A DNA stretch of 64,000 bases from Abditibacteriaceae bacterium. Its GTDB lineage: Bacteria > Armatimonadota > Abditibacteriia > Abditibacteriales > Abditibacteriaceae. Made by a program: the position numbers and the translations under genes. The notes beneath the pieces are model-generated. The model ran no database searches. It was given only the letters and a program-made list of their open reading frames with translations, and was not told the DNA's origin. This document shows positions 2,916 to 62,694 of the stretch, piece after piece (position 1 is the first letter of the stretch; each line of letters begins with the position of its first letter). The stretch lies in NCBI GenBank assembly GCA_031425655.1, contig JANPJS010000306.1, positions 1-64,000 of the forward strand, given 5' to 3'.

Positions 2916-3135
2916 AGAAGCTGTCTGAGAATTCATGACAACCTAATACCGAAGACTTTTCAATGGGACGCGGAGCTTCGCTACGCGGACGTTGTGCGCT
3001 GATTTTCGCTGATTTTTTCGGTAAAACCGCGCCTTCAAAGCTGTTTCGGGCGCCCTCTGGGCAGGAAAGCGAAGCTCCGCGTCCCATTGAAAAGTGGCTC
3101 AACTCACGATTAATGGCTATTCTCAGACAGTTTTT
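2916..3135. mobile_element. MITE-like nested palindromic element
   Basis: Outer IR ctgtctgagaat (2921-2932 / 3119-3130); inner perfect 28-bp IR (2955-2982 / 3068-3095). Confidence 0.65.
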
Positions 3136-3162
3136 TAGCAGAGGGAGGCTCAGGAGCATTAA

Positions 3163-3200
3163 GCTCAAGTGCCGGGCTTTGAAAAACCCGGCACTTGAGC
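3163..3200. terminator. Hairpin terminator after the 3208..5025 gene
   Basis: gctcaagtgccggg / cccggcacttgagc 14-bp stem. Confidence 0.65.
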
Positions 3201-3207
3201 CGGAATT

Positions 3208-5025
3208 TTACCCGGCGATTTGCCAACTTCCCATCTTCTGCCAGCCAGTGCGGGCGCCGGAAAGGTCAATCGCATAAAGCCACAAGTCATGGGATGTAAA
3301 TGCCCATTGTTTCGTCGGTTTCAGGCTCCAGTTCACGGTGAGAGTGTCACCGCTCATGCTAACGCTGGTAGAAGCGCAATCGAGACTGCCCTGCGCGTTG
3401 GAAATCACGTTCTGCGAGCCGGGCGCGAAGCCGCCTAAATACGAAGTCCCGGCGTCGTCCAGCAGATAAAGCTTATTTTGCTGCGCGTTGTAATAACCAC
3501 GCAGCGCGTCGGGCGGGCTTTGCGGATTGCCGGCGTGCAATAGCACATAGCGAATGTTTTCGGCGCCTTTTAAATCGCTGTGCGCGCTGGTGACGGCGTA
3601 ATCGTCGCCTGCTCCGCTGACGCCGTTGGCCGGCGACAAACTAAGGTTTTGCGGCGGCACGCTAATCGTCCAGGTGCCCAGCGATTTCCAGCCGACCGTC
3701 AGGCCCATCAAGTCGCGCGCGAAGCCGTAAATCCTATGCGGAGAACCGGCCCAACCCGGCGCAGCACTTACGTTCCAGCGCACGCGAATGCCGGAAGCGA
3801 TGTTCTCGACTTGCGTGGCGGCGCAGTTCAGTTGCCCGCGACCGTTGCTGATAATGTTCGCCGAACCCGGCGCGAAGCCGCCCAGCCATTGCGTGTTGGC
3901 GGCATTGCGCAGATAAAGTTTGCGCGCCGGCACGCTGTAAAGGCATTGCAATCCGATTTTGGCGTTGCCGGCTTCCCAATAAACGTATTGCAAATCGTTG
4001 TTGACATCGGTGTAAGGCACCGCGAATTCGCGCGGCGTGTTCACGGCATCCGTCGCGGTTTGAGGCGTCATGGCACCGATTTGCGGAGCGCGTGCGCCGA
4101 TGGTGAACGTCACGTCGTTGTTCGCGTTGGTGTCGTGATTGCCCTGCGCATCGTAATCTTCGGTCGCCAGCACGCCTTTCCAGTAGCCGCCGAGGGGAGT
4201 CGAGCTGTAGTTGTTGTGAAACGTTTCTTCGGTCAGAACAAAGCGGCATTTATAAACTCCGGCAGGCAGCACGACCGGATTCGGGCGGCCCGCTTCATAT
4301 TCGTAAAACAACTCGACGCTGCCGTTGGGTGCCGTCGAGCCGTAACCATAAAACCCGCTTGTTTGAACGCCGCCCTGCACGGAAAAAGTGCCGAAAGCCA
4401 CGTCCTGAATGCCCCCCTGCCACGAGGCCCATGTGATATGGTAAGCGATTTCACCACTAATAGCGGCGTTCACGTTGCCGAAGCGGTCGCTGACGACATC
4501 GCCCATGAATTGGTAGCCATAAATATCGTGTTCGGTGCCGGGCGCGGCGTTTTTGTAGAAATCCACGTAATGCGAATCGTCGAAGTTGGTTTGCGTGGCG
4601 TGCGATGAATCGCACCACCAGCGCCCGGCATATCCGATGCGCTCGTTGGAAAGGTCGTTGCCCATCGCGCCCCAGCCGCGCGTGCCGCGCTGTGGTTTGC
4701 CGATGAGTTTCAATTGATAAGCGAAGTTCGGTTTCAGCCCGCTGGCCTGAACTCGACCGACGAAATACGGCGCGCCCGGCGCGCGGTCGAAAGTGAGATT
4801 CACGTTCGCGTTGGCATAGGAAAATTGGCCGTTAGGCGCGCCGTTGGTGATCCAGGCGTCGAAAGGATTGTTGTCTATATCCCAAAATCGCTCGCGCGCG
4901 GCGGGCCACGGGTCGTTCATCGGCGCCATCGTCACGGTTTTAGGCAGTCGAATCGTGGTAGCGGCGGAAACGGGAAAAGCGAGTGCGCTGACGAGCGCGA
5001 CGGAAACGGCAAGAGTAAATTTCAT
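3208..5025 (-). CDS. Secreted protein: unrecognised N-terminal domain plus two ~125-aa beta-rich repeats (paralog of 15951..17237)
   Basis: Signal peptide MKFTLAVSVAL...VSA; repeated 'KLYL...LGGFAPGS.N.ISN..G.L.C' units; start chosen at the ATG at 5025. Confidence 0.75.
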   Translation of the reverse strand: MKFTLAVSVALVSALAFPVSAATTIRLPKTVTMAPMNDPWPAARERFWDIDNNPFDAWITNGAPNGQFSYANANVNLTFDRAPGAPYFVGRVQASGLKPNFAYQLKLIGKPQRGTRGWGAMGNDLSNERIGYAGRWWCDSSHATQTNFDDSHYVDFYKNAAPGTEHDIYGYQFMGDVVSDRFGNVNAAISGEIAYHITWASWQGGIQDVAFGTFSVQGGVQTSGFYGYGSTAPNGSVELFYEYEAGRPNPVVLPAGVYKCRFVLTEETFHNNYSSTPLGGYWKGVLATEDYDAQGNHDTNANNDVTFTIGARAPQIGAMTPQTATDAVNTPREFAVPYTDVNNDLQYVYWEAGNAKIGLQCLYSVPARKLYLRNAANTQWLGGFAPGSANIISNGRGQLNCAATQVENIASGIRVRWNVSAAPGWAGSPHRIYGFARDLMGLTVGWKSLGTWTISVPPQNLSLSPANGVSGAGDDYAVTSAHSDLKGAENIRYVLLHAGNPQSPPDALRGYYNAQQNKLYLLDDAGTSYLGGFAPGSQNVISNAQGSLDCASTSVSMSGDTLTVNWSLKPTKQWAFTSHDLWLYAIDLSGARTGWQKMGSWQIAG

Positions 5026-5283
5026 AAGCAACGTCGGACTCACCGACGATTGCAGTTTGACATTATGCGCCGGGCCGCGTTTTGATATGAAATATTTCAT
5101 AGAATCTAAACATGGGTGATTAAAACGACTTTTCGAAAACAACCGACTTGGTTTTTCAAACACAACATCACGCCGCTGTCGCCGGTCAGCGATTTCGCGC
5201 GCTTGGAAGAAACCGGCAAAGCGCAAAAGAAATTTTTCGCGCCAGGCTCATCCGCGCAAAAATAAAAAAACTCCTCTCTTCCC

Positions 5284-6261
5284 ATGAACTTGGATTTATT
5301 GCTGTCCAACCTCCTCAACCCGCCGGTCTTGTTTTTTTTCTTAGGCATGGTGGCGGTTTTCGTCGGCTCCGATTTGGACGTGCCGCAGCCGTTGCCCAAG
5401 TTTTTCTCCTTATATTTGCTGCTGTCAATCGGCTTCAAGGGCGGCGTGGAATTGAATCACAGCGGCATCGGCGCGCAAATTTTATGGACGATGGGGGGCG
5501 CCATTTTTATGGCTTTGCTGGTGCCGCTTTATGCCTTTTGGATTTTGCGGCGCAAATTGGACGTTCCCAACGCCGCCGCCATCGCCGCCACTTATGGCTC
5601 GGTCAGCGCCGTCACTTTCATCGCTGCAACCTCGTTTCTCAGCGAACTTGACATTCCTTATGGCGGCCATATGGTCGCCGCCATGGCCTTGATGGAATCG
5701 CCAGCCATTATCGTCGGCGTGGCGCTTTCGCGTTTGGGCGCGGGCGCGCAAGAAGGCGAAAAAGCCCACTTCGATACCAAGGAATTGCTGCGCGATGCCT
5801 TTTTCAACGGCTCGGTTTTAGTGTTGATCGGCAGCCTGATCATTGGGCTTCTTACCGGCGAAGAAGGCAAGAAGGCTTTGAATCCGTTTGTTAGCGATAT
5901 TTTTAAAGGGATGCTTTGCCTTTTCTTGCTGGACATGGGCTTGGTCAGCGCGCGGCGCTTGAACGGCTTGAAAAAATTAGGCACCTTTCCCATCGGCTTT
6001 TCCATGGCATTGCCGTTGTTCAACGCCGTGCTTGGGCTTTTGGTAGCGAATTGGCTCGGTTTGGGCAAAGGCGATGCTCTGCTGTTTTGCGTTTTGAGCG
6101 CCAGCGCCTCATATATTGCCGTTCCCGCCGCCATGCGCTTGGCCATTCCCAAAGCCAATCCCGGCATTTATGTGACGATGGCGCTGGCCCTGACTTTTCC
6201 GTTTAATGTCTTGCTGGGCTTGCCGATTTACTTGAGCATTATTAACCGTTTCTGGAGCTAA
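5284..6261 (+). CDS. sbtA: Sodium-dependent bicarbonate transporter SbtA family
   Basis: 'P.VLFFFLG', 'YLLLSIGFKGG', 'YGSVSAVTF', 'ASASYIAVPAA', 'TFPFN' motifs. Confidence 0.92.
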   Translation: MNLDLLLSNLLNPPVLFFFLGMVAVFVGSDLDVPQPLPKFFSLYLLLSIGFKGGVELNHSGIGAQILWTMGGAIFMALLVPLYAFWILRRKLDVPNAAAIAATYGSVSAVTFIAATSFLSELDIPYGGHMVAAMALMESPAIIVGVALSRLGAGAQEGEKAHFDTKELLRDAFFNGSVLVLIGSLIIGLLTGEEGKKALNPFVSDIFKGMLCLFLLDMGLVSARRLNGLKKLGTFPIGFSMALPLFNAVLGLLVANWLGLGKGDALLFCVLSASASYIAVPAAMRLAIPKANPGIYVTMALALTFPFNVLLGLPIYLSIINRFWS

Positions 6262-6274
6262 GCGAAGGAGTAGC

Positions 6275-6568
6275 GTGCAAAACGTCAAAAAACTGGAAAT
6301 CATCACTGACACGCTGGAAATGAAGGAAGTCTGCGCCGTCTTGGAAGCGCAGGGCGTGAGCGGCTATTCAATTGTGCGTGACGTGGTAGGGAAAGGCGAG
6401 CGGGGGTGGCAATCGGGCGATGAACTGACCGATGTTTTCAAAAATAGCTATCTCTTAACCACTTGCGATGCCAGTGAGGTGGAGCGCCTAATCGAAGCCG
6501 TGCGGCCTATACTGAAAAAGCGCGGCGGCATTTGTTTGGTTTCCGATGCGCAGTGGGTTATTCATTAG
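6275..6568 (+). CDS. sbtB: P-II-like regulator SbtB
   Basis: 'KKLEII...GVSGYSI...V.GKG.RG...GGIC.VSD'; adjacent to sbtA. Confidence 0.85.
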   Translation: MQNVKKLEIITDTLEMKEVCAVLEAQGVSGYSIVRDVVGKGERGWQSGDELTDVFKNSYLLTTCDASEVERLIEAVRPILKKRGGICLVSDAQWVIH

Positions 6569-6587
6569 TTTTTAATTCAAATTTTCA

Positions 6588-7226
6588 ATGCATCGTATCA
6601 AAAGACTTCTTGACAACAATCGTGCATGGGCGGCTCGCGTCGAGCAGGAACAGCCCGGCTTCTTTCACACACTGGCTGCCCAACAATCGCCGGATTTTTT
6701 GTGGATTGGCTGCTCCGATTCGCGCGTCCCGGCCAATGAAATCGTCGGCTTGCGCTCTGGCGAGGTCTTCGTGCATCGCAATGTCTCCAACGTCGTAGTG
6801 CATAGCGACTTGAATTGTTTATCGGTCATTCAATACGCCGTTGAAGTGCTGCGTGTTGAGCATATTATCGTTTGCGGACATTACGGCTGCGGCGGCGTGC
6901 GAGCGGCCACCGAAGACACCGAACACGGCCTGATTGACAACTGGTTGCGCCACATTTCGGACGTGCAGCGCAAGCATGAAACCGCGCTTAGCGCCATCGT
7001 TGATGCCGAAAAGCGCCTCGACCGATTGTGCGAAGTGAACGTGATTGAGCAAGTTTTCAACGTCTGCCAGACCACAGTTGTGCAAAGCGCATGGCGGCGC
7101 GGTCAGCCGCTCTCGGTGCACGGCTGGATTTACGATTTGCACGACGGTCTCATCCGCGATCTCAAAGTGTCCATCAGCGGATTGAGCGAAATCACGCCGG
7201 TTTACCGCGCGGCTGTCGAAAATTGA
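6588..7226 (+). CDS. can: Beta-class carbonic anhydrase
   Basis: 'GCSDSRVP', 'FVHRNVSN', 'GHYGCGGV' zinc-ligand motifs. Confidence 0.95.
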   Translation: MHRIKRLLDNNRAWAARVEQEQPGFFHTLAAQQSPDFLWIGCSDSRVPANEIVGLRSGEVFVHRNVSNVVVHSDLNCLSVIQYAVEVLRVEHIIVCGHYGCGGVRAATEDTEHGLIDNWLRHISDVQRKHETALSAIVDAEKRLDRLCEVNVIEQVFNVCQTTVVQSAWRRGQPLSVHGWIYDLHDGLIRDLKVSISGLSEITPVYRAAVEN

Positions 7227-7254
7227 TGAGCCATCACCAGAACCGAGCCGCCCG

Positions 7255-8763
7255 ATGAAACCACAGCGCACCTTCTGGCTGGTCGGCTTGGTGATCTTGG
7301 CAGCGGTTTTTCTGCGCTATTGGCCGTATCTTTTTAGCGGTTTCTGGGAAGACGACTTCGTCTTTTTGAAACAAGTGCCGCCGTTTCATCCGCGCGACCT
7401 GCCGGATTTTTTTAGTCCGTTGCGCGGTTGGTTTTACCGCCCGGTTTTTCTGGTTTATTTTTCGCTGATTTTGCGTGTTTTCGGCGCCGATCCGGTCGCT
7501 TTTCATGCCGCAAGTCTGGTTTTGCACGCGCTGAATCTCACCTTGCTGGCCTTCTTGATGCGCCGATTGGCGGGCAACAGTCGCAGCGTCAATTTCGCCA
7601 TCGTTTGTGCGCTGATCGGATTGCTCTTTTATCCCGGAATCGCGCCGACGGGCACGGGCTTTGGCGAACGCGGCATTTCCGCCGTCATTTGGATTTCTTC
7701 GGCCAGCACGCTGCTGGCGACGCTGTTTTCGCTGCTTTGCCTGCATCTCTGGCTGTCTTTTCAGCGGCACGGCGAGCGGCGTTTTTACCTTGCGGCGTGG
7801 GTTGCGTTTTTTGCAGCCTTGCTTTCCAAAGAAGATGCCGCCGCTTTGCCTTTGGCGCTTTTAAGCCTTGATTTGGCCTTCGGGCCGCCGAAAAAATGGG
7901 CCGCACGCGCTAAAGAATACGCGCCATTTGGCGTGGCGTTTTTGCTTTTTGCCATTCTCGACATCGTGGCTTACAAGCAATTTCAAGTGTTCGGCAGCGG
8001 CGAATTGGCGGGGCCGCTCAACTATGCGCGCTATCGGCTGGCATTGCAGTTTCTTGACGGTGTTTTGTTGAATATCTGGCCGCGCGCTGTGGTGTGGATC
8101 ATCGTTGGCGCAGCGGCGATCTTCGTCTGGGCGTGGCGTTACGACCGCAGTGTTGCGTTCTTTTGGGCTTGGTTATGCGCGTCGGCTTTTCCCTGTCCGC
8201 TGATGTCCGGGCCGCACGCTCTCGCCGCGAGGTTTTATTACTTGCCGGCTTTTGCCGCCGTCGCCGCGTTGGCGCTGTTGCTGCGAAATGTGGCGAACAA
8301 TGACGAAAAATACGCCCAGTTCGGGCGTTGTTTGCTACCGTTGACGCTTTTGGCCGGTTTCATCGCTTTGCCTATTGGCAAACACTATTTCGATCAAATT
8401 GCAGACCCCGCGCTCGTCTGGTTCTGCATTGCCGTTTTGATCGGGATGGCGTGGCTTTTCTGGCGCAGCGGACGTTGGCCGGGCGCGTTATTAGTGGCAC
8501 TGATTATCAGTTGCGTGGGTTCGCAGTGCGAAATTTACGGCTCCGACACCCTTAACTGGCCGCTGCTTTGCCTGTTTTTGGCAGCCGTTGCGTTGCGCGG
8601 CAGGCGCGGCGCGCCCGAAGCTTGGCTGGCGCTGGCGCTGGCGTGGTCGCAGCCGGTGCTTTACTGGTTGACTTTAGCGATGTTGGTAGAATCTCACCGA
8701 GCCGTTGGCGGCGCTTTAATGCGCAAAATGCAGCTCTTACCGGCCCCAGGGCAATCGCATTAG
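7255..8763 (+). CDS. GT-C fold membrane glycosyltransferase-like protein
   Basis: 'EDDF', 'FYRP', 'LH.LN', 'LLSKE', 'RFYYLP' with many TM helices; last codons lie inside a MITE end. Confidence 0.7.
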   Translation: MKPQRTFWLVGLVILAAVFLRYWPYLFSGFWEDDFVFLKQVPPFHPRDLPDFFSPLRGWFYRPVFLVYFSLILRVFGADPVAFHAASLVLHALNLTLLAFLMRRLAGNSRSVNFAIVCALIGLLFYPGIAPTGTGFGERGISAVIWISSASTLLATLFSLLCLHLWLSFQRHGERRFYLAAWVAFFAALLSKEDAAALPLALLSLDLAFGPPKKWAARAKEYAPFGVAFLLFAILDIVAYKQFQVFGSGELAGPLNYARYRLALQFLDGVLLNIWPRAVVWIIVGAAAIFVWAWRYDRSVAFFWAWLCASAFPCPLMSGPHALAARFYYLPAFAAVAALALLLRNVANNDEKYAQFGRCLLPLTLLAGFIALPIGKHYFDQIADPALVWFCIAVLIGMAWLFWRSGRWPGALLVALIISCVGSQCEIYGSDTLNWPLLCLFLAAVALRGRRGAPEAWLALALAWSQPVLYWLTLAMLVESHRAVGGALMRKMQLLPAPGQSH

Positions 8764-8944
8764 AATTTTTCGGTGTTTTACGAACTTGCCGGGCGAATAA
8801 ATTCGCGGCAATCCTGCCCAGAGGGCGCCCGCGGCGAAGTCCACCTTCGTGGACTAAAAACTAAGATTTTAGTCGCCGTAGGGCGACTTTGCCGCGTTGT
8901 TGCCGCGAATTTTTCGCCCGGCAAGTTCTAATGCGATTGCCCTG
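8747..8944. mobile_element. MITE with CAGGG-type (ISAs1-like) terminal IRs and a REP-like core
   Basis: Perfect 19-bp TIR cagggcaatcgcattagaa; flanking 9-bp near-duplication taccggccc / tatcggccc. Confidence 0.75.
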
Positions 8945-9000
8945 TATCGGCCCCGGAATGAGCAATTCGGGTTATATTGATAAAGAAAGGTGTCGAAGCT

Positions 9001-9612
9001 ATGAATCTCCCCGACGTGCCCAGCAATGGAAAATTTCGCATCCTCGTGGTTGAGGACGATGCTAATATCGCGCGGCTGATTTTGCTGAACTTAGCCAAAG
9101 CCAACATGGAATGCCTGCACGCCTCGGATGGGCTGTTGGGTTTGGCGCGTTTCAAGGAAGCCGATCCGCACCTGATCATCACCGATATTATGATGCCGAA
9201 CATGAACGGCATGGATATGTGCGCCAAGATTCGTGAGCATTCTTCGGTGCCGATCATTATGATGACCGCCGCCGATTCCGAAGAACGCGAAATGCAGGGC
9301 TTCAAGTCGGGCGCCGACGATTATGTGCCCAAGCCTTTCAATCCGAAATTGTTGCTGGCGCGCGTTTTGGCCAACCTGCGCCGCGTTTATCGCTACGATG
9401 CGTCCGCGCAGGCAACGCCGACGGCTTCGGTTACGGCGGCTGCCGAACCTGTTGAAATGGCTCCGCCCAGCACGCGCGGCGACTGGGTAACCTGCGATAG
9501 CTGCGGTTACATCGGCCCGCGCGCGAAATTTCAGCAAACCGATTCCACCGGCAAAGTTTCGATGACCTGCCCGGTTTGCAAGCAGAATCGGATTTCCTTT
9601 CCCATTGAGTGA
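9001..9612 (+). CDS. Response regulator: REC domain plus C-terminal zinc ribbon
   Basis: 'LVVEDD', 'TDIMMP', 'YVPKPF'; C-terminal CDSC...CPVC. Confidence 0.85.
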   Translation: MNLPDVPSNGKFRILVVEDDANIARLILLNLAKANMECLHASDGLLGLARFKEADPHLIITDIMMPNMNGMDMCAKIREHSSVPIIMMTAADSEEREMQGFKSGADDYVPKPFNPKLLLARVLANLRRVYRYDASAQATPTASVTAAAEPVEMAPPSTRGDWVTCDSCGYIGPRAKFQQTDSTGKVSMTCPVCKQNRISFPIE

Positions 9613-9639
9613 AGTGCTGGTGAAACAAAAAAGGGCACC

Positions 9640-9860
9640 CATAGGCATCAAGTTAAGTCATCGCGCGGCATCGCCCCGATTGAAATCGGGGTCTACGATT
9701 ACGAAGTCACCCGCCCAGGGGGCACCCAGTCGCGGACTCGAATTTCAGGCCGCGAAGGCGGACTTCGTAACATTAGCATCCCATTTTAATGGGGTGGGAG
9801 CGGCAAAGTCGCTTTTTGAAGATCGAAGATTACATTTCTTTGCTTAAATTGATGCGTATG
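9640..9860. mobile_element. MITE with IS4-like terminal IRs inserted at a terminator
   Basis: cataggcatcaagttaag ... cttaaattgatgcgtatg; aacaaaaaagggcaccc repeated at 9624-9640 and 9865-9881. Confidence 0.65.
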
Positions 9861-9867
9861 GGAGAAC

Positions 9868-9898
9868 AAAAAAGGGCACCCTTCGGGGTGCCTTTTTT
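9868..9898. terminator. Bidirectional intrinsic terminator
   Basis: aaaaaagggcaccc-ttcg-gggtgcctttttt between convergent genes. Confidence 0.8.
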
Positions 9899-11084: not shown

Positions 11085-11123
11085 AAATAATCACTCGTTT
11101 GGGCAGGGTGTCTAACTTGCGGC

Positions 11124-14210: not shown

Positions 14211-14266
14211 GAAGGTTGCGCTTGATTTTACTAAAAGCGTGAAAACCTGAGGTGTTTTTTACTCAT

Positions 14267-14464: not shown

Positions 14465-14482
14465 GTTACTCATAAAGCGACA

Positions 14483-14515
14483 AAGAGGCCCGGCGCAAAA
14501 TGCGCCGGGCCTCTT
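14483..14515. terminator. Hairpin terminator after the pilin-FecR gene
   Basis: aagaggcccggcgca / tgcgccgggcctctt. Confidence 0.7.
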
Positions 14516-35500: not shown

Positions 35501-36274
35501 CTGGCGAAATTGTTCGGCGCCTCGCTGTTGCACAAGCACTTGAAGGCGCAGGAACTGGAAGATTTACAGTGGTTCGCGCTGCCCGCCGAAGGCATCATGG
35601 GCCAGCCGGTCTATGATGTGCGGTTGGAGGATAATCGCACTTTTTACGGCCTGGTCGAAGAGCTTTATGCCGACCGCGAAGCGCAAATTGGCGTGGAAAC
35701 CATGCGCTCGCTGGAACGCTGGCAGGTCACGCGCTCCATTGACGATCATTGGATGGAACACTTGGCCGAAATGGACTATTTGCGCGACGCCATCTGGCAG
35801 GAAGGCTACGCGCAGAAAGACCCGGTTCACGTTTACCGTCAGGAAGGCCACGCCCTGTTTCATAAGATGCTCGGCGAAATCCGTAAGGAAGTCGCCGAAG
35901 AACTCTTCGCCATGCAGATGGACGCCGCGCCGACCTTCACCTATGGCGGCCCCGACTTTCACGGCCTGACCGAAGAACGCATCACGACTGATTTTCCAAT
36001 GCTGATGGCCGACGATGAGGAAACCGAGGACGATGGCGGCCAACTCGCCCTCGCCGCGCCGGGCGGCCATTCGATGCGCGTGACGCCCGCGCAACCGTCG
36101 CCGCAATCGCCCTCGCCGCGCCCGGTTTCGCAATCGCGCCCATTGCCTTCGCCGCGTTCGCAAAGCGCGACGAACGCGCCTTTGGAGCCGCAATATCCGA
36201 AGGCCGGACGCAACGACCCGTGTCCGTGCGGCAGCGGCAAGAAGTTCAAAAAGTGCCACGGCCAAAATGCGTAA
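29501..36274 (+). CDS. secA: Preprotein translocase SecA, giant form (2257 aa) with large insertions
   Basis: 'MRTGEGKT', 'VTVNDYLA.RD', '[18 protein letters not shown]', 'GMTGTA', '[10 protein letters not shown]', '[25 protein letters not shown]', SEC-C '[14 protein letters not shown]'. Confidence 0.97.
36194..36270 (+). repeat. Direct repeat copy 1 (secA 3' end)
   Basis: 74/77 identical to 42524..42600. Confidence 0.95.
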
Positions 36275-36277
36275 GCA

Positions 36278-36329
36278 AAAGCGGGGAACTGTCAGCGGCA
36301 TTTAAGTGCCGCTGACAGTTCCCCGCTTT
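36278..36329. terminator. Strong hairpin after secA
   Basis: Perfect 23-bp stem aaagcggggaactgtcagcggca / tgccgctgacagttccccgcttt. Confidence 0.8.
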
Positions 36330-42523: not shown

Positions 42524-42600
42524 TATCCGAAGGCCGGACGCAACGATCCGTGCCCGTGCGGCAGCGGCAAGAAGTTCAAAAAGTGCCACGGCCAGAATGC
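42524..42600 (+). repeat. Direct repeat copy 2 (orphan secA SEC-C 3' end)
   Basis: Encodes [26 protein letters not shown] with no start; preceded by an in-frame TAG. Confidence 0.95.
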
Positions 42601-42617
42601 TTGAGAAAGAGAAACCA

Positions 42618-43178: not shown

Positions 43179-43751
43179 ATGGTTTCGATGCCGCAAGTTA
43201 TGGCTCCGCCTTCCAACAAGACCGGAATGACGGCGGAAGAGTTCGCCTTGCTCAATGGCGATGAGCCGATGGAGTTGATTAACGGCGAGGTGATTGTTCT
43301 GAGTAGACCGGGTTTTGAACACGGTGAGATTGTAAGTGCTTTGATAGAACATTTACGACCTTTCATCCGGCGTAACGATTTAGGCCGCGTTGTAACTGAG
43401 AGTGGTTTTCGTTTGAGCCGCAACCCCGATATGGTTCGTGGCCCGGATGTGGCGTTTGTCGAAAAAGCGCGTTTGCCTGAAGGCACCAGACCAACCGGCT
43501 TTATCGAAGGCGCCCCAACGCTGGCCGTCGAAGTCAATTCGCCCAACGATTTATGGTCGGAAGTCGAAGCCAAAGCGCGGCTTTATCTCAGCGCCGGCTC
43601 GCGCAGCGTGTGGATTGTGGACGCCGAGACCAAAACCATCACCATCCGTCGCGCCGACGGCACGTCGCGCGTGTTCGGCGAAAACGATACGCTGCGCGAC
43701 GACGAGATTCTGCCCGGTTTTGAAATCGCGCTGGGCGAGATTTTCGACTAA
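43179..43751 (+). CDS. Uma2 family endonuclease
   Basis: 'MT.EEF', 'ELINGE', 'RGPDVAFV', 'P.LAVEV.SP', 'Y..AG...VWIVD', 'LPGF'. Confidence 0.92.
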   Translation: MVSMPQVMAPPSNKTGMTAEEFALLNGDEPMELINGEVIVLSRPGFEHGEIVSALIEHLRPFIRRNDLGRVVTESGFRLSRNPDMVRGPDVAFVEKARLPEGTRPTGFIEGAPTLAVEVNSPNDLWSEVEAKARLYLSAGSRSVWIVDAETKTITIRRADGTSRVFGENDTLRDDEILPGFEIALGEIFD

Positions 43752-43946
43752 AAACGCCTGAATAAAAGAGATTTGAACCACTGATGAATCCGCCCAGAGG
43801 GCACCCGATGGACACGGATGACAAGCGGGTTGGGGCTTGCGCTGCCAAAGGCTCAAGGCGAAATCAACACATCGAAATTAACACATCGAAATCTGTGTTT
43901 ATCGGTGTTCATCAGTGGTTCAAATCTCTTTTATTTAGGCGCTTTA
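43751..43946. mobile_element. Palindromic MITE/REP-like element
   Basis: Perfect 28-bp IR aataaaagagatttgaaccactgatgaa (43761-43788 / 43908-43935), extending outward imperfectly. Confidence 0.65.
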
Positions 43947-44160
43947 AGGTGTCGCTCACACCGATTCCTCCTCAACTTCACCCAAAACCAAAGGCCGCGC
44001 GTCCATTGCGCAGGCTTGATAATTCGCATCCAACTGCGCGCCCAATGACCACAGCGCTACCAAACGACGCGTGGGGTTTCAACCCCCGGCGAGCGGCAAA
44101 GCGTTCTATGCCGGCCCAATATCGCGTTTCTTTCTTAGCTTAATGACTATAGGTGCCAAA

Positions 44161-52744: not shown

Positions 52745-52816
52745 TGGGCGATAGAGGATTTGAACCTCTGACCTCTTCGGTGTCAACGAAGCGCTCTCCC
52801 CCTGAGCTAATCGCCC
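52745..52816 (-). tRNA. tRNA-Val(GAC)
   Basis: gggcgattagctcagggggagagcgcttcgttGACaccgaagaggtcagaggttcaaatcctctatcgccca folds as a cloverleaf; CCA not encoded. Confidence 0.95.
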
Positions 52817-52934
52817 TTATTAACAACAATATGCGCTGTTTTTCTGCGCACGGCAAATGATTCTAACCCATTCTTAGAGTTTCTGCCACGTTCCGCGAAA
52901 CAGGCTTTATCTGCGGAGAATGGGAGGCGTTGCG

Positions 52935-53396: not shown

Positions 53397-53474
53397 GGAA
53401 TGGTTCATAAAATGGCTCGTAATGTGGAAAAACCAGTTTACGCTGCGCGGAATTGCGCGCGAGGAGAATGGACG

Positions 53475-53642
53475 ATGAACTCGAACTGGTTTTTCCGAAT
53501 GCTCAACGCGATGGACGAGGCTATTGACCTTTCGTTGGTGATCGCTATTGTGTTGATTTTGGTCTTGTTTTGCTGCATGCTCACGCAAATGAACGGCGTG
53601 GAGAACGTGAAAAGCCTGCTGCTTCCGATTAGCTCCAGATAA
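53475..53642 (+). CDS. 55-aa single-TM small protein
   Basis: gaggag SD; MNSNWFFRML...LSLVIAIVLILVLFCCML; fills the moaC-lptD gap. Confidence 0.55.
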   Translation: MNSNWFFRMLNAMDEAIDLSLVIAIVLILVLFCCMLTQMNGVENVKSLLLPISSR

Positions 53643-53655
53643 CGCTGTTGTGCGT

Positions 53656-56175: not shown

Positions 56176-57371
56176 CGCTCCCTCCACAAGAGAAAAGCGC
56201 CGGCTACCAAGAAAAGGAAATTCGTCAGCCACGCCGCGACGAACGGCATTAATTTTCCGGCCAAACCCAGCGCGCGAAACCAGCCGTCGAAGCCCTGCCA
56301 GAAAAAAGCCAGCGCGAATGCCAACACCAAACCGGCGAACGAGCCGTGTTTGGCAAAGCGCAAGGCCAGAGGCGCGGCCACCAAAGCCATCACGAAGCAG
56401 GCGAAAGCCAAAGCGAAGCGGCGATGATATTCCACGCGCATCTCCTGCAACTTTTGCGGGTCGAAAGCGGCATCCGAAAGGTCTTTGATTTTCGATGAAA
56501 GCTCGCCGCTGTTCATGGAAAACGGGTCTTTGGCGTCGGCCCAGTAAGTCGAAAGCTCGCGGCCCACATAAATCGCGGTTTCCTGAAAAGGCGCTTCTCC
56601 GGTCAGCCTGCCGCCGTCGGCGTAGCTGTGCATCACGCCGTCGCGGAAAACCCAGCGATTAGGCTTTTTTTTGTCTTCCTGCGCGGTTTTAGCGATGATA
56701 ACAGTTGGATAATTCACGCCCGCTTCGCTGCCGAAAATTCCGCTTTCTGCGCGCACGTAAACCATGACATTGTTCAAAACGTGCGTATTTGGATCAACAC
56801 TGCCGACGTAAAAGCAATATTGTCCGGCTCGAAAATACATATCATTCTGGAAGATTTTCTCCGGCGCCCGCGACATCATCGTATAAAGGGTTTTCTTGGC
56901 GAGATCGTTGGTAATCGGCGCCACTTTTTCGACGACGACCCAATCGAGCAAGCTGGCAATTAACGCCATGAAAAGAAATGGCGTCAGCACGCGCGGCAGC
57001 GACGCGCCGGCCACGCGCAAGGCCGTAATTTCGTTGTCGCGCACGGCGCGGTTCAGCACCAGACAGACCGCTAAAATCACGCCCGCCGGCACGCCTTGAA
57101 CCGCGAAACCGGGCATCGCCAAGAGGAAAAGGCGCAGCACCGGCGCCGCGCTCATGCCTTGATTTACGATGGAATAAATGGCCCAATAAACGAAATTTCC
57201 GGCCAGCGCCAGCATCAGCGCGAGGACCCCGATGCTCATCGGCAAAAGCATTTCGCGGGCATAGGAATAATCCCAGATGACGGGCCGAAAGCGGCGCTTG
57301 CCACGAGATTTCGGTGGTGCGACGGCGACGGAAACCGGCGTGGGAGGTGGGGACGAAGCGATAAAAGACAT
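56172..57371 (-). CDS. LptF/LptG family permease
   Basis: 'Y..REM..P', 'DNEITALR.AG.SL', 'P..M...EL', 'AL.FAC....L...PL', 'P..AAW..N'. Confidence 0.9.
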   Translation of the reverse strand: MSFIASSPPPTPVSVAVAPPKSRGKRRFRPVIWDYSYAREMLLPMSIGVLALMLALAGNFVYWAIYSIVNQGMSAAPVLRLFLLAMPGFAVQGVPAGVILAVCLVLNRAVRDNEITALRVAGASLPRVLTPFLFMALIASLLDWVVVEKVAPITNDLAKKTLYTMMSRAPEKIFQNDMYFRAGQYCFYVGSVDPNTHVLNNVMVYVRAESGIFGSEAGVNYPTVIIAKTAQEDKKKPNRWVFRDGVMHSYADGGRLTGEAPFQETAIYVGRELSTYWADAKDPFSMNSGELSSKIKDLSDAAFDPQKLQEMRVEYHRRFALAFACFVMALVAAPLALRFAKHGSFAGLVLAFALAFFWQGFDGWFRALGLAGKLMPFVAAWLTNFLFLVAGAFLLWRER

Positions 57372-57437
57372 GAAGGCCGGACGAGAACGTCGCGCAGAAA
57401 ATTATAGCACGATGGCGGCTTTTATTCGGTTTAAGGC

Positions 57438-57662
57438 CAGGGAAATCGCATTAGAAAATTGGGAGGCCAAAGAGAGTGTCATTCCGAGCGGGCGCCCTCT
57501 GGGCAGGGTTTGCGAGTGGAGCGAGCTAACGGAGTCGAGGAATCTTTAAGGAGAGTGCCTTACAGCAAGATTCCTCGACTGCGTTTTGCTCGTTCCACTC
57601 GCAAACTTCGCTCGGAATGACACTCCTCTTTGGCTCTTGAAAATCCTAACGCGTTTGCCCTA
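57438..57662. mobile_element. MITE with CAGGG-type TIR and a gtcattccgagc core
   Basis: cagggaaatcgcattagaa ... atcctaacgcgtttgcccta; inner IR gtcattccgagc / gctcggaatgac. Confidence 0.65.
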
Positions 57663-57822
57663 CTTCGGAGCGAGCGTCTGCGCGGTGCGCGCCATGTAGT
57701 CCTCGAACTCTTCGCGGTCGGCAAATGTCCACAATGGCAAATCCCAGCGCCCTTTCGTCAAAGTGTCGGGCACTGAATTTTCGGCAAAAGCGAAAATTTG
57801 CGAAGTGTGTTCACGCCGTCAT

Positions 57823-57882
57823 TTGTAGGGACATGGCTTGCCGTGTTCAACGCAGCGGACAAGACAAACCATGTCCCTACAA
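57823..57882. repeat. GTAG-type REP-like palindrome
   Basis: ttgtagggacatgg ... ccatgtccctacaa. Confidence 0.7.
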
Positions 57883-57888
57883 CAGCGA

Positions 57889-59232
57889 TCACGCATCCAA
57901 CTTGTTCAGCACGAATTTCTCGACTTGATCCAGAGAAACTCGCTCTTGCAGCATGGTGTCGCGGTCGCGCACGGTCACGGCGTTGTCTTTTTCGATGGTC
58001 TCGAAGTCCACCGTGATGCAAAACGGCGTGCCGATTTCGTCTTGACGCCGATAAAGCTTGCCGATGGCGCCCGTGTCGTCGTATTGCGCCATCATCTTTT
58101 TGGCGAGTTGCGCTTTCAGTTTCTTAGCCACTTCGACAATCGGCGGTTTGTTTTTAGCCAGCGGCAAAACCGCGACTTTAATCGGCGCCAACTTCGGATG
58201 AAATTTCAAAACCGTGCGCATATCGCCCGGCTTGACTTCTTCTTCGTGATAAGCGTCCACCAAAAACGCCAGAGTGGCGCGGTCGGCGCCCGCCGACGGC
58301 TCGATGACGTAAGGAACAACGTGTTCATTGGTCGTCGGGTCGAAGTAGGTGATGCGCTGACCGGAGAATTTCGCGTGCTGCGTCAAGTCGAAATCGGCGC
58401 GGTTGGCGATGCCTTCGAGTTCGCTCGGCGCTTCCATGAAGGGAAATTGATATTCGATGTCGGTCGTGCCGGTTGAGGCTTCGCTTTGCGCGTAGTGCGC
58501 CAATTCGTCTTTTTCGTGTGGGCGCAGCGACAAATTTTCCGGCTTCAATCCGAGCGATAAATACCAATCGTAGCGCGCCTGAATCCATTCCTGATGCACA
58601 CGCGGCGCGTCTTCGGGCCGGCAAAAGTATTCGATTTCCATCTGCTCGAATTCGCGCGTGCGAAACGTAAAGTTGCCGGGCGTAATTTCGTTGCGAAACG
58701 CTTTGCCAATCTGCGCGATGCCAAACGGCAATTTTTTGCGACTCGTCGTCTGCACGTTGAGAAAGTTAACGAAGATGCCCTGCGCCGTTTCGGGCCGAAG
58801 ATAGGCGATGTTCGAGCCGTCTTCTTTGTCCACCGGCCCAACGCTGGTTTTGAACATCAAATTGAACTGGCGCGCTTCGGTAAACGAATTTTTGGCGCCG
58901 CAAGTCGGGCAGGGCGCGCTCACGTCAACGTGATCGGCGCGAAATCGGCCTTTGCATTCTTTGCAGTCCACCAGCGGATCGTTGAACGTAGCGACGTGGC
59001 CGGATGCTTCCCAAATGCGCGGATGCATCAAAATTGCGGCGTCAAGGCCAACCATGTCGTCGCGCTCGCGCACCACGCTTTGCCACCACGCATCCTTGAC
59101 GTTGCGCTTCAGTTCCACGCCGAGCGGGCCGTAATCCCACGTCGAAGCGAAGCCGCCATAAATTTCCGATGATTGAAATACGAAACCGCGCCGCTTGCAC
59201 AGCGACACAATATCTTCCATTTTTAAAGCCAC
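57889..59232 (-). CDS. glyQS: Glycine--tRNA ligase, dimeric (alpha2) type
   Basis: 'L.KRRGF...SSEIYGG', '[11 protein letters not shown]', '[20 protein letters not shown]', 'VIEPS.G', anticodon-binding domain. Confidence 0.97.
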
Positions 59233-59376
59233 TTGCGATTACTCCTGTTTGTTTTCAGATTCGCCTCAGTGTAACGAAAGCCAGTGTGCGAAAGGATTTT
59301 AATTCTCGGAGACCCTTCGATATTAACTTGTCACAATCCATAAAATAATATCAGGTTGATTATGACTCTCAAGCAC

Positions 59377-59408
59377 AAACGGCGCTGAGCAATTGCTCAG
59401 CGCCGTTT
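59377..59408. terminator. Hairpin terminator after xylA
   Basis: aaacggcgctgagca / tgctcagcgccgttt. Confidence 0.75.
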
Positions 59409-59423
59409 ATTTTTACGAGATTT

Positions 59424-60584
59424 TTAGCGCACGCCGAGCAGCAGTTCGACGACGAGTTGGTCGAGCTTTTCGTAGGGCAGGGAACGATTGGTCAGCGCGT
59501 CCACGTTGAACTTGGTAGCTTTCAGCTTTTGCGCGATTTCAAGCGAATAGCCGCCCGCGAAAGCCGCATCGCCGCCGTTGTTGAGTTGCTGCACGATGGC
59601 TTGGATTTCCGCGTCCTGATTGAAGCGCGCGGCTTTTTCCTTGAGGATGAGATAGGTTCTCATGCAGCCTTTGGCGAACTCGTAAACGTCCTCGGCATCC
59701 GACGTGCGGAGCGCGTGCGCATCGAAGTGGCGCGAGCCGCTATATCCGTTGTCTTCGAGCAACTTCACGAGGAAGAAGTTAGTTTTCTGGTCTTCCTGAC
59801 CAAAGCGCAAATCCTGATCGAAGCGGCCCGGCTTCTGGCCGTTGAGGTCAACGTGGAACAGTTTGCCGGCGTCCATCGCCTGCGCGACGTTGTGCATGAA
59901 ATTCAAGCCGGAAATGGTGTCGTGCGCGAATTCCGGGTTGACGCCGACGTTTTCAGGGTGATCCAGCGTTTCGATGAAGGCTAAAGCGTGGCCTGTGGTT
60001 GCCAGATAAATATCGCCGCGCGGCTCGTTGGGTTTGGGTTCGAGCGCGAGTTTGAAATTGTAGCCCTGCGCGTCCTGATAGGCGTTCAGAAAATTCAGCG
60101 CCTCGCGGAACCATTTCAAGGTGTCGAGCGGGTTTTTGGCGGCGTCTACTTCGCTGCCTTCGCGCCCGCCCCAGAAAACGTAGACTTCGGCGCCTAAATC
60201 GGCACCTAAATCCATCGCGCGCATAGTTTTGCGCACGGCGAAATCGCGCACTCTGGGGTCGCTGGAAGTGAAGGCGCCGTCTTTGAAAATCGGCTGCGAA
60301 AACAAGTTGGTCGTGGCCATCGGCACTTTCATGCCGGTTTCTTTCAAAGTCTTTTTGAAAGTTTTGACGATGGCCTTTTTCTCGGCTTCGCTGGAGCCGA
60401 ACGGCACAAGGTCGTCGTCGTGCAAATTGACTCCGTAAGCGCCGATTTCCGACAAGCGGCGCACGCTATCATTTGGGTCAACAGCGGCACGCACGGCCTC
60501 GCCGAAGGGGTCGCGGCCCGGATTGCCGACCGTCCACAGGCCGAACGTAAATTTGTGTTCCGGTTGGGGCTGATAATCGCTCAT
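59424..60584 (-). CDS. xylA: Xylose isomerase, class I
   Basis: '[15 protein letters not shown]', 'VFWGGREG', '[12 protein letters not shown]', 'NPE..H', 'DQDLRFG', 'HFD'. Confidence 0.97.
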
Positions 60585-60615
60585 TTTGGGTTCCTTTGGG
60601 TGAAATGACACGCCG

Positions 60616-60646
60616 ATTTTAACCGCTTAGCCGCTGTTGAGTCAAC
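60616..60646 (-). promoter_or_regulatory. Sigma70-like xylA promoter with a palindrome over the -35
   Basis: TTGACT-18-TAAAAT on the minus strand; gttgagtcaac palindrome at 60636-60646. Confidence 0.5.
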
Positions 60647-60676
60647 GGCACGGGAGCGATTTGGACGCCTGTCAAC

Positions 60677-60685
60677 TGTTATAAT
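60677..60685 (+). promoter_or_regulatory. Extended -10 for ricT, probably leaderless
   Basis: TGtTATAAT ending 8 nt before the ATG; no SD visible. Confidence 0.55.
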
Positions 60686-60693
60686 TATTCCTT

Positions 60694-61656
60694 ATGCCCA
60701 TTCTTGCTCCCTGCATTTTCCGCGAACCCGCGAAAACATATTTTCTCGATCCCGGCGACTTAGAAATACTCGCCGGAGACAAAATCGTGGCCGAAACCGC
60801 ACGCGGCCTTGAACTTGGAGTCGTCAAATTCCGCCCGCGTCCGATGGACGACGATAAAGTCGTGCCGCCCATTCGTCGCATTGTGCGCGTGGCCACTGCC
60901 GCCGACTTAGAACGCGACGCTGAAAACCGCACGCTTGAAGCCGAAGCGATGATTTTGGTGCGCGAGTGTATCAAGTTTTACGAACTGAACATGAAGCCGA
61001 TTCGCGCCGACATCATGGTTGACCGCGCGAAAATGTATTTTTATTACGAAAGCGAAGACCGCGTGGATTTTCGTGAATTGCTGCGTGATTTATCGAGCCG
61101 TTTGAATATGCGAATGCACTTTCAGCAAGTCGGGCCGCGCGATGCCGCCAAAGTGCTGGGTGGCTGCGGGCCGTGCGGACAGCCGCTTTGCTGCGCGACG
61201 TTTCTGACCGGGATGCCGCCGGTCACGCTGCGCATGGCCAAAGAGCAAGGCCTGGCTTTGACGCCGCATAAAATATCGGGCGCCTGCGGCAGACTGATGT
61301 GCTGCCTGCGCTACGAAGTGGATTTCTACCGCGACATGAACCAGATTTTGCCCGGCCCGCGTTCGCCGGTTGATACGCCCGAAGGCCCCGGCTACGTCAG
61401 CGAAGTGCGGCATTTGAAAGACGAAGTCGTGGTTTCGCTGGGCGATGGCCGCCGCATTGTCGTTCCCGGCGAAGATTTGCGCTCGCTGCGCGCCGAGCGC
61501 GGCCCGGTTCATGCCTGCAAAAACAGCATCAAAAACGGAGGCTCATGCGGCGGCGCCGAAGGCAAAGGCGGAGGCTGCAAAACGGGCGGCTGCGGCAAAG
61601 ATGGCGGCTGCGGCTGCAATTACAAGAAGAAATCGCCGGCAATGGCGAGCGCATAA
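60694..61656 (+). CDS. ricT: PSP1/RicT (YaaT) family protein
   Basis: 'ET.RGLELG', 'RVDFRELL', 'G.GPCG..LCC..FL', 'MAKEQ.L.L.P.KISG.CGRLMCCLRYE'. Confidence 0.92.
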   Translation: MPILAPCIFREPAKTYFLDPGDLEILAGDKIVAETARGLELGVVKFRPRPMDDDKVVPPIRRIVRVATAADLERDAENRTLEAEAMILVRECIKFYELNMKPIRADIMVDRAKMYFYYESEDRVDFRELLRDLSSRLNMRMHFQQVGPRDAAKVLGGCGPCGQPLCCATFLTGMPPVTLRMAKEQGLALTPHKISGACGRLMCCLRYEVDFYRDMNQILPGPRSPVDTPEGPGYVSEVRHLKDEVVVSLGDGRRIVVPGEDLRSLRAERGPVHACKNSIKNGGSCGGAEGKGGGCKTGGCGKDGGCGCNYKKKSPAMASA

Positions 61657-61662
61657 AGGTAA

Positions 61663-61828
61663 TAATCCAAGTTGCTACCCATCAAGCCTGGCGAATAAAT
61701 TCGCGGCAACCAAGCGGCAAAGTCGCCCTGCGGCGACTAAAATCTTTGTTTTTAGTCCGCGAAGGCGGACTTCGCTGCGTTGTTGCCCGCGATTTCAATC
61801 GCCGGGACATTGGTGGCAACTTGGCTTA
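61663..61828. mobile_element. MITE-like element with a REP core related to 8785-8925
   Basis: TIR taatccaagttgctacc / ggtggcaacttggctta; core ggcgaataaattcgcggcaa... Confidence 0.65.
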
Positions 61829-61830
61829 AT

Positions 61831-61862
61831 AAGAAAGGCGGGGCGCAAGCCCCGCCTTTCTT
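61831..61862. terminator. Bidirectional terminator
   Basis: aagaaaggcggggc-gcaa-gccccgcctttctt. Confidence 0.8.
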
Positions 61863-62040
61863 GTGTATCGTAGCTTCACGGCGACGGCACGTTCAAAAAT
61901 TTGCCAAGCACCTCGGCATAACGAGTTGCATCGTCCTTATTGTTTGAGACGAGGTAGCTCGTCAGATATTCACCACCGTTCAAAACGAAATCAGTTTTAT
62001 AATGAGCGCGTCTCGTATTATCCGTCCCCCTGATTCGTTT

Positions 62041-62367
62041 TCAGCTTTGAATTGTCTGTTTCCAACCGCAGACGAGTTCTCGAAGTTGTAGGACTTGCTC
62101 CATTTCATGCCGCAGAACGCGCAAGCGTTCATAAGGCGGGGCGCGGCGGTCGGACTGCCGCCGGTCGCTGCCGCCCTCGCGCTTGCCGCGCCGGTCGAAG
62201 CCGCTGCGCCGCGTTTCCTGCGCGCGACGATCCGCGCAGGGCAGCAAAAAATCGAGAAAGGTGCCGATAGCCGAATCAAGCTCCTTCTGACGAAGCGACA
62301 AAGCCCGCAAAGCGGCCTCAATATCATCCTTCGACTGGAAAAGCACCGTTTTCTGGTTCTCGTTCAT
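62041..62367 (-). CDS. Small protein with repeated DRR motifs
   Basis: MNENQKT...; DRRAQETRRSGFDRR...GSDRRQSDRR flanked by amphipathic helices. Confidence 0.6.
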   Translation of the reverse strand: MNENQKTVLFQSKDDIEAALRALSLRQKELDSAIGTFLDFLLPCADRRAQETRRSGFDRRGKREGGSDRRQSDRRAPPYERLRVLRHEMEQVLQLRELVCGWKQTIQS

Positions 62368-62467
62368 GAGAAAAATGGAAAAGCAAGTTCGATACCCGCA
62401 GTTAACAACCGCGTAATAATTCTGGCAATGCGGGCCGAAATTCACTTTAAAGCCGCGAACAACTTGG

Positions 62468-62694
62468 CAGGGCAAAGGCATGAGAATTTTGTGGAAAGTA
62501 GGAGAGTTGTCATTCCGAGCGAAAAAACGAGCCTCAGCGAGGTTTGGAGTCGAGGAATCTCTAACCAACCGGGCCGCAGAATAGATTCCTCGACTGCGTT
62601 TTGCTCGTTCCTCGTCCTGCCCGCAAGCGGGCGCCCGCTTCGCTCGGAATGACAACTCTCCTACTTTCCACAGAATCCTCATGCCTTTGCCCTG
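62468..62694. mobile_element. MITE with CAGGG-type TIR and a gtcattccgagc core
   Basis: Near-perfect ~55-bp IR starting cagggcaaaggcatgag; flanks aacaacttgg / aacacctcgg (8/10). Confidence 0.75.

What the first reader, a model, noticed from the sequence alone, without database searches (positions are those of the whole stretch)
3048..62636. An ~18-nt micro-element (CCTGCCCAGAGGGCGCCC) inside six palindromic elements of several families
Seen: exact copies at 3048-3065 (-), 8813-8830 (+) and 57490-57507 (-); variants at 9710-9727, 43789-43806 and 62616-62636. At 8813, 43789 and 57490 it occurs in one arm only and breaks otherwise good symmetry. For example, the left arm gtcattccgagc[18-mer]gtttgcgagtgg faces a right arm reading gtcattccgagcgaagtttgcgagtgg. 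It folds as a tiny GCCC-AGA-GGGC hairpin with a GCCC tail. Known analogy: very small dispersed repeats in cyanobacteria and HUH-mobilised REPs. Inference: a minimal mobile unit that targets other repeats, by an unknown mechanism.
Basis: partly seen in the sequence, partly recalled or inferred. Interest (0 to 1): 0.78.

Follow-up and report, generated by a model that had tools for sequence, protein, structure and literature searches.

The report
Twenty-base element replacing five target bases
A 20-base hairpin of DNA has copied itself into hundreds of sites in this bacterium, and into distant bacteria, usually by swapping out five bases that start with C, which makes it one of the smallest mobile DNAs seen and points to an insertion chemistry whose enzyme is still unknown.

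Summary
The unit is 20 nt (H-CCYGCCC-ARR-GGGC-R-CCCG; a 19-nt form exists), with about 300 copies in this Abditibacteriaceae genome. It does not simply insert. In 117 of 142 contexts with an empty allele it replaces 5 target bases, and 116 of those 117 start with C. There is no target duplication, the 3' G is fixed, and the 5' base varies with the preceding host base. Most copies sit in repeats of many families, but some sit in frame in unique genes (TyrRS, empty in 3 of 3 orthologues). The same sequence has 47-96 copies in five Chloroflexota genomes. An IS110 whose bridge RNA spells the element's hairpin inserts into it, as a hitchhiker rather than its mover. No tested enzyme family (RT, Y1/HUH, GIY-YIG, GxxExxY, DUF559, IS110) tracks it. 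Most likely mechanism (inferred): nick-primed copy-in with loss of a 5-nt flap. Closest known are the cyanobacterial SDR repeats. This scan has noted similar micro-elements, with other sequences, in other genomes.

The parts
3047..3066 (-). Micro-element, 20-nt form (5' base T); replaces CGCGG of the host
   Evidence: empty alleles CGCGG x12, CACGG x2
2955..3095 (.). Host palindrome (28-nt perfect arms); similar inverted ends flank GxxExxY (PDDEXK_3) genes elsewhere in the genome
   Evidence: (I10)
8812..8831 (+). Micro-element, 20-nt form (5' base T), in one arm only; replaces CCACG or a similar C-first 5-mer
8747..8944 (.). Host palindromic element; one contig of run X3 joins across 8740-8948, so the whole host is absent there
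   Evidence: (I20)
61697..61787 (.). Same host family without the micro-element (empty allele inside the window)
   Evidence: (D14, I1)
9709..9728 (+). Micro-element variant (AGG loop, last base A) in a RAYT-associated repeat family; the empty allele gives CGCC here and CGCCT for sister copies
43789..43807 (+). Micro-element, 19-nt short form, in one arm only; replaces CACCG/CACGG (net +14)
43748..43948 (.). Host palindrome (41-nt arms) downstream of a Uma2 gene
   Evidence: (I4)
57489..57508 (-). Micro-element, 20-nt form (5' base C), in one arm only; replaces CTCCG/CTTCG
62615..62637 (+). Micro-element with a GCAAGC loop (23 nt); replaces a C-first 5-mer (CTCCA or CGTCA, one empty copy each)
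62468..62694 (.). Host palindrome of the GTCATT family (56-nt arms); this family flanks a small GIY-YIG gene elsewhere in the genome
   Evidence: (I2)

Best explanation
A non-autonomous 19-20-nt mobile element, copied in trans by an enzyme that has not been identified. Shown: it enters new sites by replacing a segment that starts with C and is usually 5 nt long; its 3' end is exact; its 5' end is sloppy (first base T, C or A depending on the preceding host base, sometimes 1 nt shorter); it keeps a 4-bp CCC/GGG hairpin between CC and CCCG ends. Inferred: a nuclease cuts the target at a C and about 5 nt away on the other strand. The recessed 3'-OH at the right junction primes synthesis on an existing copy, starting exactly at the terminal G. 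The new strand ends in a loosely templated base that is joined at the C, and the displaced target bases are trimmed as a flap. Hairpin-rich repeats are favoured, probably because they are often nicked or single-stranded, and filled hosts then amplify further. An IS110 has programmed its bridge RNA against the element as a safe target. Confidence that it is mobile: about 0.9; in this chemistry: about 0.4.
For: Replaced length is 5 nt in 117 of 142 contexts (4 nt in 7, 6 nt in 8); C comes first in 116 of 117, and in 55 of 56 collapsed target classes against about 40% C in the flanks (binomial 4e-21). The 3' base is G in 118 of 120 event classes and in 33 of 33 in Chloroflexota loci; the 5' base depends on the preceding base, p=8e-4. 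The TyrRS copy adds 5 residues against 3 of 3 orthologues, with a C-first 5-mer in 2 of 3. The rule holds in other genomes: C-first in 17 of 18, 5 of 5 and 13 of 18 (Chloroflexota) net +14/15 cases. 23 copies carry a compensatory ACCC/GGGT stem, and in the one host family with empty alleles they replace a C-first 5-mer too. Half-elements with one target-derived end, expected from a staggered ligation with duplication, are rare: 8 and 7 among 307 cores, mostly point variants.
Against: No enzyme was found. RT, Y1, GIY-YIG, GxxExxY, DUF559 and IS110 do not separate carriers from non-carriers. The chemistry is read from end products only. 101 of 243 contexts had no empty allele, and 25 of 142 gave a length other than 5. 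A net +13 class (6 nt replaced) makes up 6 of 11 contexts in genera g2/g6. Target Cs are not less paired than other Cs in folded empty hosts (p=0.37 and 0.07). Event classes are not fully independent because hosts amplify. No polymorphic filled/empty site turned up in 4 runs of contigs.
Confidence: 0.5

Rival explanations
1. Single-strand transfer by an HUH/Y1-type (RAYT-like) enzyme: the hairpin is excised as ssDNA, joined at a nick 5' of C, and host repair removes the 5-nt flap.
For: A short hairpin with fixed tails resembles REP substrates. G000 has 6 Y1 genes. The only G012 copy and one G009 copy lie inside Y1 transposase genes.
Against: No copy within 450 nt of any G000 Y1 gene or in 30 Y1 loci from relatives. 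No Y1 hit in G041-G043, which carry 84-96 copies (these are MAGs). A transferred oligo would not have a first base that depends on the host base. IS200/IS605-type insertion deletes nothing (recalled).
Confidence: 0.2
2. Target-primed reverse transcription of a short RNA by an RT acting in trans, with the second cut placed to give a target deletion (R2-like geometry, recalled).
For: The exact 3' junction and variable 5' base fit it. The outer stem pair is T-G or T-A in 245 of 261 copies, which fits folding of the top strand. A retron-like RT is common in the family.
Against: No RT in G000, G001 or G002, the genomes with 273, 169 and 51 copies (85-97% complete). The family RT is present in non-carriers too, and no good template copy lies in 12 RT loci. 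A 5'-truncation series was not seen.
Confidence: 0.15
3. The element is a footprint or cargo of the IS110 that is flanked by its two halves.
For: In G000, 9 of 9 left-end and 10 of 12 right-end IS junctions are flanked by element halves. In G016, 8 of 8 examined copies are too.
Against: The halves vary (loops AGA 5, AAA 2, GGA 1) while the guide is constant, so the targets existed first. Occupied copies favour the guide-matching variant, 7 of 9 against 40% expected (p=0.027). The G005 sister IS has other guides and hits another repeat. No close IS110 was found in G011 (1 contig, 38 copies), G009 (3 contigs, 49 copies) or five Chloroflexota carriers. IS110 recombines at a CT core with no deletion.
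Confidence: 0.06
4. Not mobile on its own: a variable module spread only by gene conversion among related repeats, or a protein-binding site kept by selection.
For: 79% of copies flank repeats; 58 of 313 have an opposite-strand partner within 250 nt, which suggests conversion between arms.
Against: 56 target classes in unrelated hosts follow one rule. Copies lie in unique genes with empty orthologues and in a phage prohead gene. The sequence is shared across phyla.
Confidence: 0.05

Closest known systems
Small dispersed repeats (SDR) of Nostocaceae (Elhai et al. 2008). The paper is not held; seen through passages of PMC5861425, PMC4390886 and PMC2884548; other details recalled.
   Same: About 20 nt, dispersed, apparently mobile, no known enzyme. 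Found in heptamer repeats and small transposon-like hosts, with a conserved fold (the last two points recalled).
   Different: Different sequence and phyla (Armatimonadota and Chloroflexota; SDRs are reported only from Nostocaceae per PMC5861425). SDR5 inserts precisely between bases 3 and 4 of HIP1 (PMC4390886), whereas this element replaces 5 bases and needs only a C. Whether other SDRs delete target bases could not be checked.
REP/REPIN with RAYT (Bertels and Rainey 2011, PMC3116915; Di Nocera et al. 2013, PMC3733652; passages)
   Same: Short stem-loop, high copy number, some in-frame copies in genes, target of an IS110.
   Different: No GTAG/CGTC tag, no flanking RAYT, no doublet as the unit; it sits inside REP-like repeats and deletes 5 target bases. 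Di Nocera's Thermomicrobium roseum small palindromes CCGSSCC(n3,4)GGSSCGG look similar but are symmetric and were described as targets.
Rickettsia palindromic elements (RPE; passage in PMC3733652)
   Same: In-frame presence in housekeeping genes such as tRNA synthetases.
   Different: RPE-1 is described there as a longer palindromic insertion; no C-anchored replacement rule appears in the passages seen.
IS621-type IS110 bridge recombinases (Durrant 2024 PMC11208160 and Hiraizumi 2024 PMC11208158, passages; ISPpu10 preprint 10.64898/2026.03.19.712850, abstract)
   Same: Describes the hitchhiking IS: DEDD plus Transposase_20 domains, CT core, left and right target guides matching the element, target is a repeated hairpin.
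   Different: It explains insertion INTO the micro-element, not the spread of the micro-element.

Membership tests
SDR-type very small mobile repeats | Dispersed repeat of about 20-27 nt, far above background | tested here: met
   19-20 nt; 98 exact and 134 one-mismatch copies against 0 for 8 shuffles
SDR-type very small mobile repeats | Filled and empty alleles in diverse contexts | tested here: met
   142 of 243 contexts, 56 target classes; TyrRS orthologues
SDR-type very small mobile repeats | Fold supported by compensatory change (feature recalled) | tested here: met
   23 ACCC/GGGT-stem copies; folding energy alone is not significant
SDR-type very small mobile repeats | Clean insertion without loss of target bases (as for SDR5 in HIP1) | tested here: not met
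   5 nt replaced in 117 of 142
SDR-type very small mobile repeats | Sequence kinship with SDR1-8 | not testable with these tools
   paper not held
REP/REPIN (RAYT-mobilised) | GTAG/CGTC terminal tag | tested here: not met
   ends are H-CC and CCCG
REP/REPIN (RAYT-mobilised) | Copies flank a RAYT gene | tested here: not met
   0 of 6 G000 Y1 loci, 0 of 30 relative loci; two copies lie inside Y1 genes
MITE | Terminal inverted repeats and target duplication; parent IS with the same ends | tested here: not met
   no duplication; the only long element bounded by the halves is an IS110 inserted at the CT core
Retroelement (TPRT) | RT in carrier genomes, with a template nearby | tested here: inconclusive
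   none in G000, G001, G002 (incomplete MAGs); family RT also in non-carriers
IS110 bridge recombinase (the hitchhiking IS, outside the window) | PF01548 plus PF02371 recombinase | tested here: met
   on the G006 copy; C-terminal remains at 69-82% identity on 10 G000 contigs
IS110 bridge recombinase (the hitchhiking IS, outside the window) | Left-end RNA with guides matching the target around a CT core, covarying with the target | tested here: met
   guides GGGTGCCCT and CCCAGAG; CCCAAAG in L246, whose target has an AAA loop; other guides and another target in G005
IS110 bridge recombinase (the hitchhiking IS, outside the window) | Circle formation and RNA expression | not tested
   no RNA run listed

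The most novel reading that the evidence does not exclude
A distinct integration chemistry, not described for any mobile element in the papers searched. A trans-acting enzyme, shared by Armatimonadota and Chloroflexota, writes a 20-nt hairpin into almost any C-N4 site by replacement, with no homology and no duplication. It may be the missing motor of SDR-like micro-elements generally, and it is successful enough that an RNA-guided IS110 lineage has specialised on its product.
Probability: 0.45. Interest if true: 0.88.

Novelty: new variant of a known kind. Interest (0 to 1): 0.74.

Why it matters
How repeats shorter than 30 nt move has been open since the SDR report. This element gives a sharp, testable signature: C-anchored 5-nt replacement, exact 3' end, context-dependent 5' base, seen at 56 target classes and in two phyla. 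It also comes with near-complete carrier and non-carrier genomes in one family for finding the enzyme. If the enzyme exists, it is a near sequence-independent short-oligo writer, and it adds 5-residue peptides to housekeeping proteins. The nesting (nuclease-cassette repeat, then micro-element, then bridge-RNA IS110) shows an IS110 guide tracking a target that is itself mobile.

Tried and rejected
RT as mover: 0 hits in G000 (tblastn with 12 relative RTs also empty); 26 of 31 genomes have an RT regardless of carrier state. Y1/HUH: 26 of 31, none in G041-G043. GIY-YIG: 31 of 31, mostly large proteins; small ones occur in carriers and non-carriers, and no copy of the element lies in 30 loci. GxxExxY: 17 of 21. 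DUF559: 15 of 21, none in carriers G011, G017, G019. Four-helix-bundle (IVP) genes were checked in G000 only. Neighbour-gene clustering of 356 genes showed no enriched family. The long element with the element's ends turned out to be an IS110 inserted into it. The 41-nt remnant at C64 fits a deletion over an 8-nt microhomology, not a TPRT truncation (inference). The second control pattern was the reverse complement of the query and is not a control. The 13-mer repeat control was saturated and was replaced by 16-mers. The paralogue search for empty in-gene alleles was mostly noise, and the genome-wide module screen collapsed into one cluster. Target pairing state gave no signal. Rfam: only a tRNA in the window. 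Sequencing runs: no RNA holder listed, and no contig showed a host without the element. Metagenome scan: 5 of 119 loci held had an IS110 hit, the rest look like chance. Viral scan: 10 single-copy loci; no mover gene was apparent in the 2 whose ORFs I read. Paper searches that found nothing relevant on this element or on a replacement rule; two searches found only papers citing the SDR report. Supplements were not read, and the SDR paper itself may describe target loss.
Full report
OBSERVATION. The genome (G000, 5.98 Mb, 327 contigs) holds 98 exact, 134 one-mismatch and 52 two-mismatch copies; eight shuffled 18-mers gave none at <=1 mismatch. The family is Abditibacteriaceae by record titles of hits and an earlier scan note on this genome.

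BOUNDARIES AND RULE. I anchored 11 nt on each side of 313 copies (286 long, 27 short; the pattern allowed one mismatch, so a few, such as C39, C128:4242 and C292, are probably chance coding matches) and searched for empty alleles with any gap of 0-13 nt. 142 of 243 distinct contexts had one. The replaced segment was 5 nt in 117, 4 nt in 7, 6 nt in 8 and another length in 10. 116 of the 117 five-mers start with C, as do 55 of 56 collapsed target classes, while flanks are about 40% C (binomial 4e-21). The base after that C is rarely C (8 of 55 against 210 of 503). The unit is therefore 20 nt, H-CCYGCCC-ARR-GGGC-R-CCCG, net +15, with a 19-nt form at net +14. No target is duplicated. The last base is G in 118 of 120 event classes. 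The first base is T, C or A and depends on the preceding host base (A in 24 of 68 after a pyrimidine, 2 of 52 after a purine; chi-square p=8e-4; classes not fully independent). Half-elements are rare. The hairpin is weak on its own, but 23 copies carry an ACCC/GGGT stem, and in the one of four tested host patterns that had empty alleles they replace a C-first 5-mer.

WHERE IT SITS. 247 of 313 copies have a flanking 16-mer seen four or more times, against 20% of random intergenic Cs and 4% of coding Cs. The hosts are unrelated families, several of which form the inverted or heptameric ends of small-gene cassettes: GxxExxY, four-helix-bundle, DUF559, GIY-YIG and RAYT. 21 of 313 copies fall in genes called by my own rough gene finder. 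In the TyrRS-like gene (name from my reading of the sequence) the copy adds 5 residues relative to 3 of 3 same-genus orthologues, whose replaced 5-mers are CACTG, CAAAG and AGAAA. Two more copies lie in Calx-beta-like repeats (recalled motif) and one in a phage prohead gene.

SPREAD. With the pattern CYGCCCNNNGGGCRCCCG, 20 of 26 other genomes of the family have a match and 9 have 26-169 copies. 34 genomes from the rest of the phylum have 0-6, and reversed controls give 0-3. Five of them, chosen because they had hits, hold 47-96 copies against 0-2 for the control. From fetched loci the rule holds: Chloroflexota 20 of 63 contexts had an empty allele, 18 at net +14/15, 13 of those C-first; a same-family locus set 20 of 52, 18, 17; genera g2/g6 11 of 21, with 5 of 5 C-first at net +14/15 and 6 at net +13, which read as C-first 6-mers, mostly from one host. 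The 3' G is present in 33 of 33 Chloroflexota classes.

THE IS110. Contig ends revealed a long element bounded by the two halves of the micro-element. Relatives show it is a 1.2-1.3-kb IS110 (PF01548 plus PF02371) with a CT core, as in IS621 (PMC11208158 and PMC11208160, passages). Its left end carries guides GGGTGCCCT and CCCAGAG, which spell the micro-element's bottom strand around the core. In G000, 9 of 9 left-end and 10 of 12 right-end matches are flanked by element halves. In G016, 8 of 8 loci examined (of 10 hits) are too, with three different loops under one guide. A metagenomic copy has guide CCCAAAG and an AAA-loop target. The G005 sister has other guides and another target, and one G003 copy sits in a near-match. 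No close IS110 was found in G001, G002, G009, G011, G019, G047 or the five Chloroflexota genomes. Recent abstracts report copy-out excision, which leaves no footprint. I read the IS as a hitchhiker.

MECHANISM. The left target cut is set by sequence (C) and the right one by distance (mostly 5 nt), while the element's right end is exact and its left end sloppy. This asymmetry fits synthesis primed at the right junction and closed with a loosely templated base at the C, with the displaced bases trimmed (inference, about 0.4). Strand transfer by an HUH-type enzyme (0.2) and RT-primed synthesis (0.15) remain. Against all of them, no enzyme family tracks the element, target Cs show no pairing bias, and four runs of contigs showed no host without the element, so present activity is unshown.

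COMPARISON AND NOVELTY. It works like the Nostocaceae SDRs. I could not read that paper and know it from passages in PMC5861425, PMC4390886 and PMC2884548 and from recall. It fails the clean-insertion feature described for SDR5, and it fails the REP and MITE tests. Searches found no description of this element or of a replacement rule; the library is partial and supplements were not read. The scan's own notes list similar micro-elements of other sequence, one said to replace 3-5 bases; these are unchecked leads, and a look-up by sequence found nothing. Verdict: a new variant of a known but unexplained kind, with an unusually exact signature. Interest 0.74.

Noticed in passing
G000 contig ends C65, C66, C70, C88, C170, C189, C212, C220 (left ends) and C15, C23, C58, C71, C97, C101, C154, C205, C248, C302 (right ends); full copies L301, L303: A multicopy IS621-like IS110 whose bridge RNA is programmed against the micro-element; the sister element in G005 is programmed against a DUF559-type repeat.
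   Followed up: yes
window 9639-9860: A MITE-like element with inverted ends beginning CATAGGCATCAAGTTAAG sits in a terminator hairpin with an apparent duplication of about 15 nt. A related family (ends CAATGGCATTAAGTTA) is common at contig ends and has entered the micro-element's hairpin twice (C13, C109).
   Followed up: partly
G000, loci: Small genes (GxxExxY, four-helix-bundle, DUF559, GIY-YIG, RAYT) are each bracketed by their own inverted or heptameric repeat family, whose free copies are the hosts of the micro-element.
   Followed up: partly
L379 (G012) and L380 (G009): Micro-element copies interrupt Y1 transposase genes; the G012 copy is the only one in that genome, which suggests a route of transfer.
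   Followed up: partly
L381:1002-1035 (G017, minus strand): Two copies 15 nt apart, in frame in a priA-like gene (name recalled from motif); simplest as slippage across the element's 5-nt terminal near-repeat.
   Followed up: partly
L332-L336, L338-L340: A retron-like RT of about 480-560 aa with a long N-terminal extension (class from my reading of its motifs) is shared by many genomes of the family but was not found in G000, G001 or G002.
   Followed up: partly
window 57540-57620, 62580-62650: A second short module (GCTCGTTCCWCTCGC-like) recurs in the loops of GTCATT-family hosts and may be another micro-insertion.
   Followed up: no
window 36194-36281 and 42524-42611: An 88-nt, 92% identical direct repeat of a gene end 6.3 kb apart (SEC-C-like motif, recalled); resembles the displaced gene ends noted earlier in this genome.
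   Followed up: no
G000 C29 (minus strand, near 3179) and C16:49113: Element-like sequence inside attC-like repeats (label recalled), with a longer stem variant.
   Followed up: no
L165:2301-2319, L166:2501-2519: Single copies in phage head-gene regions, one in frame in a prohead protease-like gene.
   Followed up: partly
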